Source of the DNA: a virus
Lineage: Duplodnaviria; Heunggongvirae; Uroviricota; Caudoviricetes
Virus record (IMG/VR): IMGVR_UViG_2713896770_000016
Coordinates: 1-9,136 of that record
DNA length: 9,136 nucleotides
Reading direction: 5' to 3' (one strand)
The notes under the pieces were generated by a model. It was not told where the DNA came from. It saw only the letters and a list, made by a program, of their open reading frames with translations, and searched no databases. Positions 1 through 9,136 of the stretch are shown here, piece by piece. The position numbers were made by a program, and so were the translations under genes. Numbering within the stretch: the first letter of the stretch is position 1; every line of letters begins with the position of its first letter.

Positions 1-2138
1 TCATCGGTCATAATGGCAGACTGCGCTTCACGTGATTGCTTCAGCCACCATTTAATGGTGTCACGATCAATGACTCCGCCAGCAGTTTCCAGATCGATAG
101 TCTTACTAAATTCCGGTCCCATATCTCCGGTTTGCGGATCGAAAAATATTGCACCTATTGAGATAATCGGGGCATCAGGATTTTTTCCCATGGTTTCAAG
201 GTCGATCATTAGATGGTCACACGTCCTGCTGGTGGATGTGATAACACGATGACCGTTCACCGTAATTAAGGGATCTGCCGTCTCGCCAGTTTCACTATCG
301 CTGGCGTGATCCTGAGCGCTGCCAGCATTCTCCTTGTGTGGATGTTCAGCGCCTTCCATTTTCTCCGAATCGTCTTCCTGAACTTCAACCTGGTTCTTGT
401 CATCGAATGTTTCCTGGTATGTTGCGTCGCCCATCACCGCACCACAATCAGGGCAGTTGCCACCGCCGGTCTGACCGCAGGCGGTGCAGACTTTTTCCAC
501 TTCCTGTTGCGCCACTGGTTCAGGCTGTTTCGTTTCTGGCTCGTTTTGTAACGCATTTGGGCTGTTTTGTTCCGCTTTCTGGTCGTTCTGTTCCGTTTCT
601 TGCTGGTTCTGGTTCACAGAATCGCGGGTTTCAATCCCCTTCACCCATTTCGGATCATTCGGGTCGCTAATCCCTGCAACAAATTCACCACGTGATGCGG
701 CGAGCAACTGATTGGCGTCAGGCTGGCTGATATTGGCTGCCTGCATAATTTTGTTTACTTCGTCAGCGGTAACTTTTACCGGTTCTGGCTGTGCGGTCGT
801 GTCAGATGCACCAGTATTTTGTTGTGAACCTGAGTATGTACTGTTTTTGCGGGCGAAATATTCTTCTTTCGTGATTTCAGTAGCCCCGGCAGCCAGCGCC
901 TTATCCAGACCAGAAAGTTTGTTTGCGCGACCGTATTTTTCGCCATCCTTGTCGGTGAAGAGGAAGTAGAACGGCCCCTCACGCTCTACAGATGGTTCGA
1001 CTTCCACTTTGCATTCGGTTTTTTCGTTGTCCGGAATTGCCGTTTCCACTGCATCAGTTTCTGGTACTGGCGACGAGAGAGTATCAGTTGCGCTCTGATT
1101 TGTTCCTTCATCTTCAAACACGCCCTTTGTAGTCAGGTATTCAGTAATGTATTTGTTCAGTGCCACAGGATCTTTGTGAATGTCGATCGGACGTTCACGG
1201 ACAAGGCCAAAAATAGTCTGGCGGTCGTAGCGAAGGGCATCAGGCTGTTTGCGCATCGATGCCGAGATACGCTTCCAGTCTTCGCGGTCGTTGTCGATAA
1301 CTTCATTTTTTGCCCAGCGATGGATGCTGCCGTCAATGTTTCCGGCATCCACATCACCAGGCCAGAGAGCGTAGGCCAGTTCGTCATCCAGTGTTTTCCA
1401 TGTCTGCTTATATTCGCGACGAATGACTGCAGTGACAGGGGGGATTTTTTCTGCTGAGTTTTCAGTGTGCTGTCGGTGGACTCTGGCGCGGGCGAGATCA
1501 ACAACAGACGTGTATTTTCCGGTTTCCTTGCGTTCACCTTCGCGACGTTTTTTCCAGATGCGCATTTCTGCCTGAATTTCGGGCCATTTGGCACCAGGCT
1601 TACATTTATGCTTAACCCACCCGATGGCATGCAGCTTAAGCTCCGGATACATGGCGTTAACTTCTGGCATTTTCATCAACGCTTCAACGATATGTCCGTC
1701 GAATGTTGCCATGTCTTCCTGCAACAATTCCTGCGCGCTAATCACCATATCAACGGTGATGTTTTCACATGTGTCGAACTTAACCATGACAGCGTTCTGT
1801 ACTTCAAGGGACAGTTTGTCAAAATTGACGTTCATCGGTTCGGATTCTGGTTCGACCGGAATAAAGGAAGCGGATTCCTCATCCCAGCGGTTTTCCTGCA
1901 TATATTCGGTATCCCAGGAGTCGATAGCAGGGCGGGGCATGCCGGGTTTATCCTCGCAGATAAGAAATTTATAAGCGCAGTCCTGAGCAGCCGGATATTG
2001 CTCCAGGAATTGCCAGGTAAATTTGGCACGGGCGCGGCGTTCGTCGCCAGCTTCAATGGCAGTGGCTACAGCAACTGCACCTTCTTCCTTTATTGCCTGT
2101 TCGTCCGGAATGGCGGCGCAAATAAAGACTTTACTCAT
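1..2138 (-). CDS. recE: RecE-like exodeoxyribonuclease VIII family protein, N-terminal ~712 codons; 3' end runs off the left edge of the window
   Basis: Minus-strand frame opens at ATG 2138-2136 (MSKVFICAAIPDE...) and stayed open in the stretches hand-checked (1-300, 1440-1500, 2100-2138). It is absent from the ORF track, consistent with having no in-window stop. The plus strand over the same span holds only short, mutually tiling shadow ORFs. GAGG lies about 10 nt upstream of the ATG. An internal segment ...LLAASRGEFVAGISDPNDPKWVKGIETRD... resembles what I recall of Rac RecE. No search was run. Confidence 0.7.
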   Translation of the reverse strand, partial: MSKVFICAAIPDEQAIKEEGAVAVATAIEAGDERRARAKFTWQFLEQYPAAQDCAYKFLICEDKPGMPRPAIDSWDTEYMQENRWDEESASFIPVEPESEPMNVNFDKLSLEVQNAVMVKFDTCENITVDMVISAQELLQEDMATFDGHIVEALMKMPEVNAMYPELKLHAIGWVKHKCKPGAKWPEIQAEMRIWKKRREGERKETGKYTSVVDLARARVHRQHTENSAEKIPPVTAVIRREYKQTWKTLDDELAYALWPGDVDAGNIDGSIHRWAKNEVIDNDREDWKRISASMRKQPDALRYDRQTIFGLVRERPIDIHKDPVALNKYITEYLTTKGVFEDEGTNQSATDTLSSPVPETDAVETAIPDNEKTECKVEVEPSVEREGPFYFLFTDKDGEKYGRANKLSGLDKALAAGATEITKEEYFARKNSTYSGSQQNTGASDTTAQPEPVKVTADEVNKIMQAANISQPDANQLLAASRGEFVAGISDPNDPKWVKGIETRDSVNQNQQETEQNDQKAEQNSPNALQNEPETKQPEPVAQQEVEKVCTACGQTGGGNCPDCGAVMGDATYQETFDDKNQVEVQEDDSEKMEGAEHPHKENAGSAQDHASDSETGETADPLITVNGHRVITSTSRTCDHLMIDLETMGKNPDAPIISIGAIFFDPQTGDMGPEFSKTIDLETAGGVIDRDTIKWWLKQSREAQSAIMTD

Positions 2139-2261
2139 TTTGTTTTAACCTCATGACAGATTTAAGGATGAACAAATCCCTGCCATTGCTGGCATATAAG
2201 AATCAAATCTGATGTATTCATTAAGCTGAATGTCGTATTGTGGCAGTTATTTTATTACTGC

Positions 2262-2483
2262 TCACCATGACTCTGCTTTTACAGGTAAACCATCACGACC
2301 AAGGAAGACTTTAATCATGGTTTCCTTAATACAGTGTTGTGTGGAAAAATCACGAATATAGAGCCGTTGTTTTTTAATGTTGTTTACCGAAGCAATATAT
2401 GTTCTTCCTTTATGAATAACATAATCACCGGGAGTCACGCACTGACGAGGAATCTCATCAGTTCCGAAGTGATGAGCAATCAT
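2262..2483 (-). CDS. kilR: KilR-like small protein (73 aa), putative cell-division inhibitor
   Basis: Track ORF 2262..2495 (77 aa). The internal ATG at 2483 is preferred because GGAG sits 6 nt upstream of it, whereas the 2495 ATG has no SD. The product [22 protein letters not shown]... is 73 aa, the length of Rac KilR, and lies immediately upstream of recE-like in the same orientation. The name rests on recalled similarity, not alignment. Confidence 0.5.
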
Positions 2484-2657
2484 AATTATCTCCATTTTTA
2501 CAAATGAACTTTGTTGATGCGGTGCCTGGTGCCTCCAGGTGACGTTAACCAGTTAACAATTAACGCCGGATACAGAGAACCCACCCATAACACTGTTTTT
2601 GGTTTTAACTGTTCCGCGTGCGCTCAGCCGCATTCACCGCATCACAAAACTCACTTT

Positions 2658-2715
2658 AAAAAGGGCGGCAGACCAGTCACGGAGTAAAACTGATACCGCC
2701 AAACGTCACCAGAAA
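2658..2715 (-). ncRNA. dicF: DicF-type sRNA (prophage-encoded, ftsZ-targeting family)
   Basis: Minus strand reads TTTCTGGTGACGTTTGGCGGTATCAGTTTTACTCCGTGACTGGTCTGCCGCCC followed by TTTTT. This matches the 53-nt E. coli DicF RNA as I recall it, apart from about 1 nt. It has a GC-rich 3' stem plus U-tail and occupies the same operon position as in Qin (after the ydfC-like gene, about 175 bp before the next gene). Confidence 0.7.
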
Positions 2716-3775: not shown

Positions 3776-3814
3776 ATACCCATAGGTATTTAAAAAGTAA
3801 ATACCCATGGGTAA
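3776..3814. promoter_or_regulatory. Operator pair downstream of the repressor gene (OL-like), probable control region of the leftward early operon
   Basis: Two 14-bp dyads: ATACC-CATA-GGTAT (3776-3789) and ATACC-CATG-GGTAA (3801-3814), centres 25 bp apart. The second contains the perfect 12-bp palindrome TACCCATGGGTA. They share the half-site with the operators at 4295-4347. Confidence 0.5.
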
Positions 3815-3855: not shown

Positions 3856-4275
3856 CTATGATGCGTTTTGTGCTTTCTTTTTACGGATTTCTTCGTAGAT
3901 CATATTGTAATACTGTTTTTTCTCTTCAAGAGTTTTTAATAATTTATCCGCTTCACTTTCTGGCAGTTCGTCTAAGAGATCTAAAAAAATACGTTGTCGT
4001 GGCGTTAGAACCCTTGTTTCATAACTGGAGGCTGTGTTCGTTGATGATGAAACGATACCATCCATCCATCCCCGGGGTAACCCAAAGGACTCTTCGATAA
4101 TCTCCACCATATCATCAGCGATCCGTTTTTTTCCCTTTTTCCCCTCTGGGTACAACATTCTTGATACATAAGAAGGCTCGCGCCCGATCTTTCTGGCCAC
4201 GTTAACCGCTTTACCATCGCATTTCTCATCACGAATTTTGATGAGTTGCTGTCGTCTAAATTCATATTTGTCCAT
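3856..4275 (-). CDS. Prophage repressor, DicA/RacR-like HTH protein (139 aa)
   Basis: Track ORF. The N-terminal region has an HTH-like segment GKAVNVARKIGREPSYVSRML. The C-terminal LTPRQRIFLDLLDELPESEADKLL resembles the DicA C-terminus as recalled. It is divergent from a cro-like gene and flanked by palindromic operators. No SD precedes the ATG, so the mRNA may be leaderless. Confidence 0.8.
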   Translation of the reverse strand: MDKYEFRRQQLIKIRDEKCDGKAVNVARKIGREPSYVSRMLYPEGKKGKKRIADDMVEIIEESFGLPRGWMDGIVSSSTNTASSYETRVLTPRQRIFLDLLDELPESEADKLLKTLEEKKQYYNMIYEEIRKKKAQNAS

Positions 4276-8190: not shown

Positions 8191-8877
8191 ATGACCCCAA
8201 TAAAAATATTTATGACTATTGCTGATTTCAAACGGCCTAAATTGGAGCTCCCAAACGGGGCAAACAAACTACTACTGCACTCTTGCTGTGCTCCATGTTC
8301 CGGTGAAGTGATGGAGGCGCTTCAGGCCTCGGGAATCGACTACACCATCTTTTTCTACAACCCGAACATTCATCCTCAGAAAGAGTATTTAATTCGTAAG
8401 GATGAAAATATTCGCTTTGCTGAACAACACGGCGTGCCGTTTATCGATGCTGATTACGACACCGACAACTGGTTTGAACGTGCCAAAGGAATGGAATGGG
8501 AGCCTGAGAGGGGGATCCGTTGTACCATGTGTTTTGACATGCGTTTTGAGCGGACAGCGTTGTACGCTGCTGAAAATGGTTTCAGTGTGATCAGCAGTTC
8601 ACTGGGCATTTCACGCTGGAAAAATATGCAGCAGGTTAACGAGTGTGGGCGGCGAGCTGTTGCGCATTATCCGGGTATGGTGTACTGGGATTATAACTGG
8701 CGCAAGCAGGGCGGCTCGTCCCGTATGATTGAAATCAGCAAGCGCGAAAAATTCTATCAGCAGGAATATTGTGGCTGTGTGTATTCTCTGCGCGATACCA
8801 ATCTACACCGCAAATCTCAGGGACGCCCTCTTATCAAAATTGGCCAACTCCACTACGGAAAAGAAGAGAAGGAGTGA
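8191..8877 (+). CDS. QueH-like (DUF208-type) putative Fe-S protein, possible epoxyqueuosine reductase homologue (228 aa)
   Basis: Track ORF. N-terminal [12 protein letters not shown] followed by FFYNPNIHP, and later RCTMC and EYCGCVYS cysteine motifs. I recognise this pattern as DUF208/QueH, not confirmed by search. It follows a 153-bp intergenic region with extended -10-like TGcTACACT (8169-8177) and TGcTATTTT (8181-8189). No SD precedes the ATG. Confidence 0.75.
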
Positions 8878-9136
8878 TTTTATGGATCACCTTTCTGATT
8901 GATTTCATATTGGCGAGGTGACGTGAGTTAAGTAGAATGGCTGCGGGTGCTTGAGGCTATCTGTCTCAGGCATGAACACTGAAAGGCAGATAGAGAAAAG
9001 CCCCAGTTAACATTTCGCGTCCTGCAAGACGCTTAACATTAATCTGAGGCCCAATCTATGTCTCACAAATGTAGGTTAGCCTCTTACGTGCCGAAAGGCA
9101 AGGGGAAGCAGGCTATTGTTAACACCAAGCTGTAAT

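What the first reader, a model, noticed from the sequence alone, without database searches (positions are those of the whole stretch)
1..2138. RecE-like protein with a DEDD-type exonuclease motif, a zinc-ribbon-like CxxC pair and a Q/E-rich linker
The last codons in the window (about 1-225, minus strand) encode ...CDHLMIDLETMGKNPDAPIISIGAIFFDPQTG..., which resembles motif I of DnaQ-like 3'-5' exonucleases rather than the PD-(D/E)XK nuclease I recall for Rac RecE. Upstream there is CTACGQTGGGNCPDCG (about 440-495) and a Q/E/N-rich low-complexity linker (about 500-620). This suggests a RecE-family scaffold with a different nuclease module, which would alter the polarity of the recombination exonuclease.
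Basis: partly seen in the sequence, partly recalled or inferred. Interest (0 to 1): 0.4.

Follow-up and report, generated by a model that had tools for sequence, protein, structure and literature searches.

The report
RecE-like prophage protein with DnaQ-type exonuclease
This is the very common, already catalogued E. coli prophage "exonuclease" (the intact form of the K-12 ydfE pseudogene): a RecE-like body whose usual 5'-3' nuclease is replaced by a DnaQ/DexA-type 3'-5' exonuclease, and it is never paired with a RecT annealing protein, so it is probably not a recombinase of reversed polarity.

Summary
The minus strand of window 1-2138 encodes codons 1-712 of an 823-aa protein. A 100% identical E. 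coli record supplies the rest.

- **Nuclease:** the full protein has a complete DEDDh domain (PF16473, E 2.4e-67; D646, E648, D746, H796, D801). Its best structural match is T4 DexA. It has no PD-(D/E)XK domain.
- **Body:** residues 1-626 are RecE-like throughout. The N-terminus matches RecE's by profile comparison (97.4%). The zinc ribbon region is close to Rac RecE.
- **Family:** it is a mosaic. Either N-terminal type occurs with a DEDD, a PD-(D/E)XK or no recognisable nuclease module.
- **Neighbours:** in 9 of 9 DEDD-type contexts the next gene is xis or int, never an annealase. In 4 of 5 PD-(D/E)XK contexts it is recT.

So the "different nuclease module" reading is right. The "polarity-switched recombination exonuclease" reading is not supported.

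The gene is ordinary: 75% of complete E. coli genomes carry DNA of its nuclease domain. It is annotated as an exonuclease (PGAP, PHROG 2082), and Pfam YdfE_N/YdfE_C cover close homologues. It is under purifying selection. I found no experimental study of its function.

The parts
1..2138 (-). 5' 86% of the exonuclease gene (codons 1-712 of 823). The gene continues 334 nt beyond the left edge of the window.
   Evidence: Open frame. Identical full gene at L001 8667-11138, PGAP 'exonuclease'. PHROG 2082 matches 1-823 of 823.
2149..2152 (-). GAGG ribosome-binding site, 10 nt upstream of the ATG at 2138
   Evidence: Read directly from the sequence.
1524..2138 (-). N-terminal domain, aa 1-205: an alpha/beta subdomain (1-100) plus a helical subdomain (105-205). 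YdfE_N type, a distant homologue of the RecE N-terminal domain PF06630.
   Evidence: AF2 pLDDT above 90. 89% identical to the K-12 ydfE pseudogene product. hhalign against the RecE N-terminal profile: 97.4%, E 1.6e-11; shuffled controls 0.1%. PF27430 YdfE_N is precomputed on close homologues. dN/dS about 0.2.
1119..1406 (-). Central helical domain, aa 245-340, shared with RecE-family proteins
   Evidence: AF2 pLDDT 88-96. Aligns with RecE 278-336. Found in both nuclease types. dN/dS 0-0.1.
843..977 (-). Small beta-beta-alpha module, aa 388-432
Evidence: Present in a subset of family members.
624..782 (-). Helical segment, aa 453-505 (LLAASRGEFVxGISDPNDPKWVKGI), close to Rac RecE
   Evidence: BLASTP. 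The DNA block shared with Rac recE is window 265-707, 76% identity. pLDDT 81-89 for aa 474-504.
495..623 (-). Q/E/N-rich disordered linker, aa 506-548
   Evidence: Composition. pLDDT below 50. dN/dS 0.15-1.14 depending on the pair compared.
414..494 (-). Zinc-ribbon-like module, aa 549-575. The four Cys are 551, 554, 562 and 565 (window 441-488).
   Evidence: The four Cys and their flanks are conserved in 14 representatives of both nuclease types and in Rac RecE. pLDDT about 72 with two short strands. dN/dS 0-0.12. Metal binding was not tested.
222..413 (-). Acidic disordered linker, aa 576-639. It holds the junction (aa about 626, window about 265) where similarity to Rac RecE stops.
   Evidence: BLASTP ends at 626/592. 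DNA similarity ends at window 265. pLDDT below 50. dN/dS 0.5-0.9.
1..221 (-). First 73 residues (aa 640-712) of the DEDDh 3'-5' exonuclease domain (aa 640-823), including motif I (D646, E648)
   Evidence: PF16473 E 1.5e-25 for the window part and 2.4e-67 for the full protein. D646, E648, D746, H796 and D801 are invariant in a 35-sequence alignment. Foldseek best hit is T4 DexA 8ken/8kel, E 9e-12. dN/dS 0.04-0.18.

Best explanation
The gene encodes an 823-aa early protein of a lambdoid (Rac/Qin-type) prophage. It is the last gene of the leftward early operon (DUF1391 - ydfB-like ORF - ydfC - DicF - dicB remnant - kil - exonuclease - xis - int). The protein is a RecE paralogue: the non-catalytic 620-aa RecE-type body is kept, namely the N-terminal domain, helical middle domain, zinc ribbon and disordered linkers. 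The C-terminal PD-(D/E)XK 5'-3' nuclease is replaced by a DEDDh (DnaQ/DexA/Rv2179c-like) domain. Most likely mechanism (inferred): after prophage induction or infection, the DEDDh domain removes nucleotides from free 3' ends by two-metal catalysis (D646, E648, D746, H796, D801). DNA is the likelier substrate, because the closest solved relative is the T4 DNA exonuclease DexA and the body is shared with a DNA enzyme. The RecE-type body would tether the nuclease, through flexible linkers, to whatever RecE's own N-terminal region recognises; that target is still unknown. The protein works alone, not as the nuclease half of an exonuclease/annealase pair. In evolution the exchanged cassette is [PD-(D/E)XK domain + recT] against [DEDDh domain], with the junction in the acidic linker just before the nuclease domain. 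Shown: architecture, homologies, catalytic residues, fold, gene neighbourhoods, purifying selection. Inferred: polarity, substrate, time of expression, biological role.
For: Domains. RecE homology of the middle. RecE homology of the N-terminus by profile-profile comparison with shuffled controls. Catalytic pentad invariant. Mapping to DexA D7, E9, D119, H186, D191. Confident AF2 model of the DEDD domain, with DexA, RNase T and Orn/REXO2 as best PDB matches. Combinatorial mosaic of N-terminal type and nuclease type among 150 representatives. P0129 has PF06630 plus PF16473, and P0131 has YdfE_N/YdfE_C plus PF12684. Neighbourhoods: DEDD type is followed by xis or int in 9 of 9; PD-(D/E)XK type is followed by RecT in 4 of 5. 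Functional constraint: five intact orthologues, folded modules dN/dS 0-0.3, most linker comparisons 0.5-1.1. A 92% orthologue sits in the same position in phage mEp460. DNA of the nuclease domain is in 4071 of 5426 complete E. coli genomes. Literature: DnaQ-type nucleases near int in lambdoid phages, judged not to be Rec-module genes (PMC12315714). The RecE nuclease domain is residues 564-866 and the N-terminal part has unknown function (PMC11611040).
Confidence: 0.62

Rival explanations
1. One reading: a recombination exonuclease of reversed polarity, working in a RecET-like two-component system.
For: The RecE-type body is kept along its whole length. A related standalone DEDD exonuclease sits in the Erf-SSB module of epsilon34. 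PMC12315714 counts such contiguous DnaQ genes as Rec-module members.
Against: No recT, erf or bet gene follows in 9 of 9 DEDD-type contexts. The annotated early-left region of this prophage (ydfA/B/C-like genes, DicF, dicB remnant, kil) contains no annealase gene. recT tracks the PD-(D/E)XK module instead. From established knowledge: RecT- and Beta-type annealases load on 3' overhangs made by 5'-3' resection, and a 3'-5' exonuclease would destroy them. PMC12315714 explicitly does not count int-proximal DnaQ nucleases as Rec-module proteins.
Confidence: 0.07
2. A prophage-borne defence or superinfection-exclusion nuclease of the HREX/EcD kind, which degrades the modified (5hmC) DNA of invading T-even phages.
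For: An E. coli DexA homologue (EcD) degrades T4 DNA and protects against T4 (PMC12153337). This domain's best structural match is DexA. The gene is prophage-borne and extremely common in E. coli.
Against: EcD is a different protein: its primers give MIDTET... to ...TIPETYD, and no such sequence is among the proteins fetched. The DexA residues reported as needed for 5hmC DNA, W152 and D169, are Y766 and A788 here. D90, which is absent in EcD, is kept here as D718. The gene lies in the leftward early operon downstream of the repressor-controlled region; the equivalent K-12 dicBF operon is reported as poorly transcribed under standard laboratory conditions (abstract of 10.1101/2023.04.14.536235). 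That fits a lytic-cycle function better than a lysogen defence. PADLOC gives only a weak generic DEDDh hit.
Confidence: 0.12
3. An exoribonuclease that trims or degrades RNA 3' ends, for example host or operon transcripts, as the Pfam family name suggests.
For: PF16473 is described as a 3'-5' exoribonuclease domain. RNase T, oligoribonuclease and REXO2 are strong structural matches. Many database names read '3'-5' exoribonuclease'.
Against: The top structural and sequence match in the PDB is the DNA exonuclease DexA. The body is shared with the DNA exonuclease RecE. The database names are propagated from the Pfam family, not from tests.
Confidence: 0.1
4. A decaying chimera or pseudogene left by recombination between prophages, with no function.
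For: The K-12 copy (ydfE) is a pseudogene cut by IS2. Synonymous divergence varies widely along the gene, which shows intragenic mosaicism.
Against: The full-length frame is intact in five independent contexts. Folded modules have dN/dS 0-0.3 and the catalytic residues are invariant. The gene is present in phage mEp460 and in thousands of genomes.
Confidence: 0.02

Closest known systems
Rac prophage RecE (exodeoxyribonuclease VIII, E. coli K-12 b1350)
   Same: Similar size (823 versus 866 aa) and the same place in the early-left operon after kil. The N-terminal domain is homologous (profile-profile 97.4%). The middle region is homologous, including the C-x2-C-x7-C-x2-C zinc ribbon and acidic linker (aa 478-626 share a DNA block of 76% identity).
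   Different: The C-terminal PD-(D/E)XK 5'-3' nuclease (PF12684) is replaced by a DEDDh domain. NCBIfam RecE equivalog score is 275 against a cut-off of 1269. No recT follows. The N-terminus is too diverged for PF06630 to hit directly.
YdfE (E. coli K-12 Qin prophage pseudogene b1577; Pfam YdfE_N PF27430 and YdfE_C PF27432)
   Same: 89% identity over aa 1-256. Same operon position (dicB - ydfD - ydfE - ... - int). Close homologues carry the YdfE_N and YdfE_C Pfam families.
   Different: The K-12 copy is truncated by IS2 after about 256 codons. The window's gene is the intact 823-aa form with the nuclease.
Bacteriophage T4 DexA (exonuclease A; PDB 8KEL/8KEN)
   Same: Best sequence and fold match in the PDB. 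The same DEDDh pentad is present (D7, E9, D119, H186, D191 correspond to D646, E648, D746, H796, D801).
   Different: DexA is a standalone 227-aa protein with extra loops. About 20% identity. The W152 and D169 positions implicated in 5hmC DNA are Y766 and A788 here.
Standalone lambdoid/P22-like DnaQ-type exonucleases (for example Salmonella phage epsilon34 gp34, 182 aa)
   Same: 56% identity over the whole DEDD domain. Same Pfam family. Also an early-left gene.
   Different: Those are single-domain proteins inside an Erf-SSB-exo-Abc2 recombination module. Here the domain is fused to a RecE-type body and sits next to xis-int with no annealase.
EcD / HREX defence exonuclease of E. coli (PMC12153337)
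   Same: A DexA-family DEDDh exonuclease encoded in E. coli genomes.
   Different: A different, short protein (starts MIDTET, ends TIPETYD). The residues used to define it are not matched here.
Mycobacterium tuberculosis Rv2179c (the protein that gives PF16473 its name)
   Same: Same Pfam family, matched over the full profile length.
   Different: Pfam describes the family as a 3'-5' exoribonuclease domain, and Rv2179c is not a phage protein. No Rv2179c chain appeared in the PDB sequence search at E up to 1 or among the 50 listed Foldseek PDB hits.

Membership tests
RecE / exodeoxyribonuclease VIII (NCBIfam NF007259 equivalog) | Whole-protein score at or above the curated cut-off (1269 bits) | tested here: not met
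   275.5 bits, covering only aa 246-626. Rac RecE scores 1830.
RecE / exodeoxyribonuclease VIII | C-terminal PD-(D/E)XK nuclease domain (PF12684) | tested here: not met
   No hit at E up to 0.1 on the full-length protein. Rac RecE hits at 4.1e-28.
RecE / exodeoxyribonuclease VIII | N-terminal Exonuc_VIII domain (PF06630) | tested here: inconclusive
   No direct Pfam hit. Profile-profile hhalign of the N-terminal 215 aa against the RecE N-terminal profile gives 97.4%, E 1.6e-11 over 187 columns; column-shuffled controls give 0.1%.
RecE / exodeoxyribonuclease VIII | Middle region with zinc ribbon and acidic linker homologous to RecE 278-592 | tested here: met
   BLASTP E 7e-60. DNA block 76% identical. 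Zinc-ribbon motif conserved.
Two-component exonuclease/annealase recombinase (RecET, Red) | An annealase gene (recT, bet or erf) next to the nuclease gene | tested here: not met
   xis or int follows directly in 9 of 9 DEDD-type contexts.
DEDDh / DnaQ-like 3'-5' exonucleases, Rv2179c-like family PF16473 | HMM score above the gathering threshold over the whole profile | tested here: met
   226.5 bits against 27, profile 2-177 of 177.
DEDDh / DnaQ-like 3'-5' exonucleases | Catalytic D-E-D-(H)-D residues in motifs I, II and III | tested here: met
   D646, E648, D746, H796 and D801 are invariant in 35 sequences. D646, E648 and D746 align to DexA D7, E9 and D119 in the MAFFT alignment; H796 and D801 map to DexA H186 and D191 by matching the H-x4-D motif by hand, because MAFFT misaligned that stretch.
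DEDDh / DnaQ-like 3'-5' exonucleases | RNase H-like DnaQ fold | tested here: met
   AF2 pLDDT above 90 for most of aa 640-823. Foldseek: DexA E 9e-12, RNase T 3e-8, Orn/REXO2 1e-6.
DEDDh / DnaQ-like 3'-5' exonucleases | Metal-dependent 3'-5' exonuclease activity | not testable with these tools
   Needs an enzyme assay.
YdfE family (Pfam PF27430 YdfE_N, PF27432 YdfE_C) | Membership of both Pfam families | tested here: inconclusive
   These models are not in the local Pfam copy. They are precomputed on homologues 91-96% identical over the queried middle region (for example P0108) and named. 89% identity to K-12 YdfE.
HREX / EcD 5hmC-DNA defence exonuclease (PMC12153337) | Trp and an acidic residue at DexA W152 and D169, and loss of DexA D90 | tested here: not met
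   Y766, A788 and D718 at those positions. The mapping rests on an alignment at about 20-28% identity.

The most novel reading that the evidence does not exclude
The roughly 600-aa RecE-type body is a self-contained functional platform that does not depend on which nuclease it carries. Prophages attach it interchangeably to a 5'-3' PD-(D/E)XK nuclease (with RecT), to a 3'-5' DEDDh nuclease (alone), or to no recognisable nuclease. If so, it has a conserved activity of its own, such as binding DNA ends or a host factor. That would explain the long-unexplained N-terminal two thirds of RecE, which improves linear-linear recombineering, and natural domain swaps would make the question directly testable.
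Probability: 0.35. Interest if true: 0.5.

Novelty: already known. Interest (0 to 1): 0.25.

Why it matters
As a sequence feature it is routine. The protein is in RefSeq (WP_061330130.1), in PHROG 2082 and in recent Pfam families. DNA of its nuclease domain is in three quarters of complete E. coli genomes, and DnaQ-type nucleases next to int in lambdoid phages were noted in 2025 (PMC12315714).

What remains of interest is functional. This is one of the commonest prophage genes of E. coli and it is under clear purifying selection, yet I found no study of what it does. One likely reason is that the K-12 copy (ydfE) is broken by IS2.

The link found here (the PD-(D/E)XK module travels with recT, the DEDD module never does) argues that the two RecE forms do different jobs. 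The shared body points to a way of finding out what the N-terminal two thirds of RecE does.

Tried and rejected
- **Homologue search with the middle region:** the 120 listed hits were all close E. coli fragments (91-96% identical over the queried region) and told nothing about diversity. I replaced it with the 50%-clustered representative search plus local phmmer domain mapping.
- **Structure job with the exact C-terminus:** I used the 95% identical P0088 instead.
- **PADLOC:** only a weak generic Cas-associated DEDDh hit, so the gene is not a catalogued defence gene.
- **EcD identity:** the EcD accession could not be retrieved. Only its primers were available, and they show it is a different protein.
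- **Literature:** searches for ydfE function returned nothing relevant. The retron-trigger work concerns Rac RecE itself, not this protein. PMC13344964 on bacterial and human exonucleases had no relevant text.
- **Promoter/terminator scan:** no more consensus sites than in shuffled sequence, and no convincing terminator between kil and the gene.
- **Gene after the Salmonella-type RecE P0255:** it is not RecT and has no Pfam hit (phrog_3657, unknown function). I counted it as 'no RecT shown'.
Full report
**What is in the window**

The minus strand of window 3-2138 is a single open frame of 712 codons. It starts at the ATG at 2138, with GAGG 10 nt upstream, and runs off the left edge.

- The CxxC pair CTACGQTGGGNCPDCG is aa 551-566, window 441-488.
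- The Q/E/N-rich stretch is aa 506-548 (Q 23%, E 19%, N 14%); the matched segment aa 509-549 is window 492-614.
- The segment CDHLMIDLETMGKNPDAPIISIGAIFFDPQTG is aa 640-671, window 126-221.

The in-window part alone matches Pfam PF16473 (Rv2179c-like 3'-5' exonuclease) at E 1.5e-25.

**Getting the whole gene**

Window 1-2400 is 100% identical to the E. coli chromosome NZ_CP074756.1. There the gene is 2472 nt / 823 aa, and PGAP annotates it as 'exonuclease' WP_061330130.1. It lies in a lambdoid prophage integrated next to potC.

Going leftward from the cI-like repressor, the annotated order is: DUF1391 gene, a small ydfB-like ORF, ydfC, the DicF sRNA (Rfam 74 bits), a dicB remnant, a Rac-type kil, the exonuclease, excisionase, integrase.

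**Domains**

The full-length protein has a complete PF16473 domain at aa 642-813 (E 2.4e-67, profile 2-177 of 177), a weak RNase_T hit, and no PD-(D/E)XK domain. Rac RecE, run in the same call, gives PF06630 plus PF12684.

The NCBIfam RecE equivalog scores 275 bits against a cut-off of 1269 and covers only aa 246-626. PHROG 2082 'exonuclease' matches end to end.

In a 35-sequence alignment, D646, E648, D746, H796 and D801 are invariant. They correspond to the DexA catalytic residues D7, E9, D119, H186 and D191.

AlphaFold2 models the domain with pLDDT above 90 for most of its length. Foldseek ranks T4 DexA first (E 9e-12), then RNase T and oligoribonuclease/REXO2. DexA is also the only hit in the PDB by sequence.

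**Relation to RecE**

BLASTP aligns aa 262-626 with RecE 278-592 (E 7e-60). The two are closest from about aa 480, which includes the zinc ribbon and the acidic linker. At the DNA level the shared block is window 265-707, at 76% identity.

Similarity stops at aa about 626, which is RecE about 592. That is roughly where the RecE nuclease domain begins; a review puts the domain at residues 564-866 (PMC11611040).

The first 256 aa do not hit PF06630. They are 89% identical to the K-12 Qin pseudogene ydfE, which IS2 cuts.

I compared a profile of this N-terminal type with a profile of the RecE N-terminal type, after removing mosaic sequences present in both sets. The result was 97.4% probability, E 1.6e-11 over 187 columns. 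Five column-shuffled controls gave 0.1%. So the whole non-catalytic part is RecE-like.

AlphaFold2 shows it as folded modules joined by disordered linkers: aa 1-100, 105-205, 245-340, 388-432, 474-504 and the zinc ribbon. None of these modules found an informative structural relative.

**The family is a mosaic**

I searched 1.8 billion cluster representatives with aa 1-640, mapped domain pieces locally, and spot-checked with Pfam. Every combination exists:

| N-terminal type | C-terminal module | Examples |
|---|---|---|
| YdfE type | DEDD | this protein, P0121, P0122 |
| RecE type | DEDD | P0129, P0123, P0141, P0254, prophage record vB_EcoS-813R8 |
| YdfE type | PD-(D/E)XK | P0131; P0200 and P0228 by local phmmer (Pfam lists only YdfE_C plus PF12684 for P0200) |
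| RecE type | PD-(D/E)XK | Rac RecE, P0255 |
| either | none recognised | P0126, P0130, P0134 and others |

The last class probably corresponds to the 'RecE-2' proteins of PMC12315714.

The zinc ribbon is an optional module found with both nuclease types. Its four cysteines are invariant where it occurs.

**Neighbours decide the interpretation**

In nine DEDD-type contexts the next gene is an excisionase or integrase, with no annealase:
- this prophage;
- phage mEp460;
- the vB_EcoS-813R8 record at potC;
- a Qin-site prophage;
- an ompW-site prophage;
- a P0254 locus in another genome;
- two P0141 metagenome contigs;
- a P0123 contig.

Among five PD-(D/E)XK-type contexts, four are followed immediately by RecT: Rac, P0131 (PF03837, E 2e-36), P0200 and P0195. 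The fifth, P0255, is followed by a 271-aa protein of unknown family.

A simple Fisher calculation on 4 of 5 against 0 of 9 gives p = 0.005. The contexts are not phylogenetically independent, so this figure is only indicative.

The unit that is exchanged therefore appears to be [PD-(D/E)XK domain + recT] against [DEDD domain].

**Is it a working gene?**

Five orthologues from different integration modules are intact. Pairwise dN/dS is 0-0.3 in the folded modules and 0.04-0.18 in the DEDD domain. Most linker comparisons give 0.5-1.1.

A 92% identical copy sits in the same position in phage mEp460. DNA of the DEDD domain is found in 4071 of 5426 complete E. coli genomes, with up to 7 places per genome.

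**Mechanism**

The most likely reading is a stand-alone, metal-dependent 3'-5' exonuclease made from the leftward early operon during lytic growth. It probably acts on DNA 3' ends, tethered by the RecE-type body. Polarity, substrate and role are inferences from family membership.

There is no annealase partner. From established knowledge, RecT- and Beta-type annealases need 3' overhangs, which a 3'-5' exonuclease would remove.

A defence role like that of the E. coli DexA homologue EcD (PMC12153337) is possible but not favoured. EcD is a different short protein. The DexA residues tied to 5hmC DNA (W152, D169) are Y766 and A788 here. The gene also sits in an operon whose K-12 equivalent, dicBF, is reported as poorly transcribed under standard laboratory conditions.

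An RNA substrate cannot be excluded, given the Pfam name and the RNase T and Orn matches.

**What is already known**

Casjens, Smith and colleagues (PMC12315714) reported three relevant points:
- DnaQ-like nucleases occur in lambdoid phages.
- Sporadic ones lie near int, outside the recombination module, and the authors do not count these as Rec-module proteins.
- There are 'RecE-2' proteins without a nuclease domain.

Pfam has recent YdfE_N, YdfE_C and KilR families. I found no experimental paper on YdfE or this exonuclease.

**Verdict**

The nuclease swap is real. The recombinase of reversed polarity is not supported.
- The feature is an already catalogued and very common prophage gene, so its interest as a discovery is low.
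- The link between nuclease type and recT, and the shared body, are modestly useful leads for working out what the N-terminal part of RecE does.

Noticed in passing
window 2663-2714 (-): A complete DicF small RNA (Rfam RF00039, 74.2 bits against a gathering score of 48) lies in the same leftward operon, upstream of the exonuclease gene, as in the K-12 Qin dicBF operon.
   Followed up: partly
window 2262-2593 (-): The early-left region is a Qin/Rac hybrid. A truncated dicB pseudogene (2510-2593) is followed by a Rac-type kil gene (2262-2483). DNA at 2247-2668 is 82% identical to the Rac kilR region. Other copies of the exonuclease are preceded by dicB-ydfD instead.
   Followed up: partly
window 8945-9117 (+): A sok antitoxin RNA (Rfam RF01794, 115.6 bits), belonging to a hokD-type toxin-antitoxin locus at the right end of the window.
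   Followed up: no
window 8191-8877 (+): An ORF that PGAP annotates as epoxyqueuosine reductase QueH (PGAP CDS at window 8212-8877), a tRNA-modification enzyme, carried as prophage cargo after the replication genes.
   Followed up: no
window 3777-3813 (-): A 16-bp-stem inverted repeat (TACCCATGGGTATTTA...TAAATACCTATGGGTA) followed by a T-rich tail. It lies just downstream of the cI-like repressor gene (3856-4275) and upstream of the DUF1391 gene. It could be a terminator or an operator.
   Followed up: no
window 1-2138 (-), compared with L003, L007, L008: Synonymous divergence between orthologues varies about 20-fold along the gene (dS 0.03 to 0.68 in adjacent modules). This suggests repeated recombination inside the gene at module boundaries.
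   Followed up: partly
L018 3001-5109 and L019 3001-5226: RecE/YdfE-type proteins of 700-790 aa whose C-terminal 250-350 aa match no Pfam family (P0126, P0130, P0134, P0136, P0153, P0165, P0181). P0126 is followed by xis-int. P0134 is followed by a Mu Gam-like end-protection gene.
   Followed up: partly
L016 5565-6380: In a genome assembly (GCA_011382265.1), a RecE with a PD-(D/E)XK domain (P0255) is followed by a 271-aa protein in RecT's position. It has no Pfam hit and no similarity to RecT (phrog_3657, unknown function). It may be an unrecognised annealase.
   Followed up: partly
precomputed Pfam lists: The Pfam families PF27430 (YdfE_N), PF27432 (YdfE_C) and PF27398 (KilR) appear in the precomputed annotations but are missing from the local Pfam-A copy. 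Direct scans here therefore under-report the domains of this protein.
   Followed up: yes
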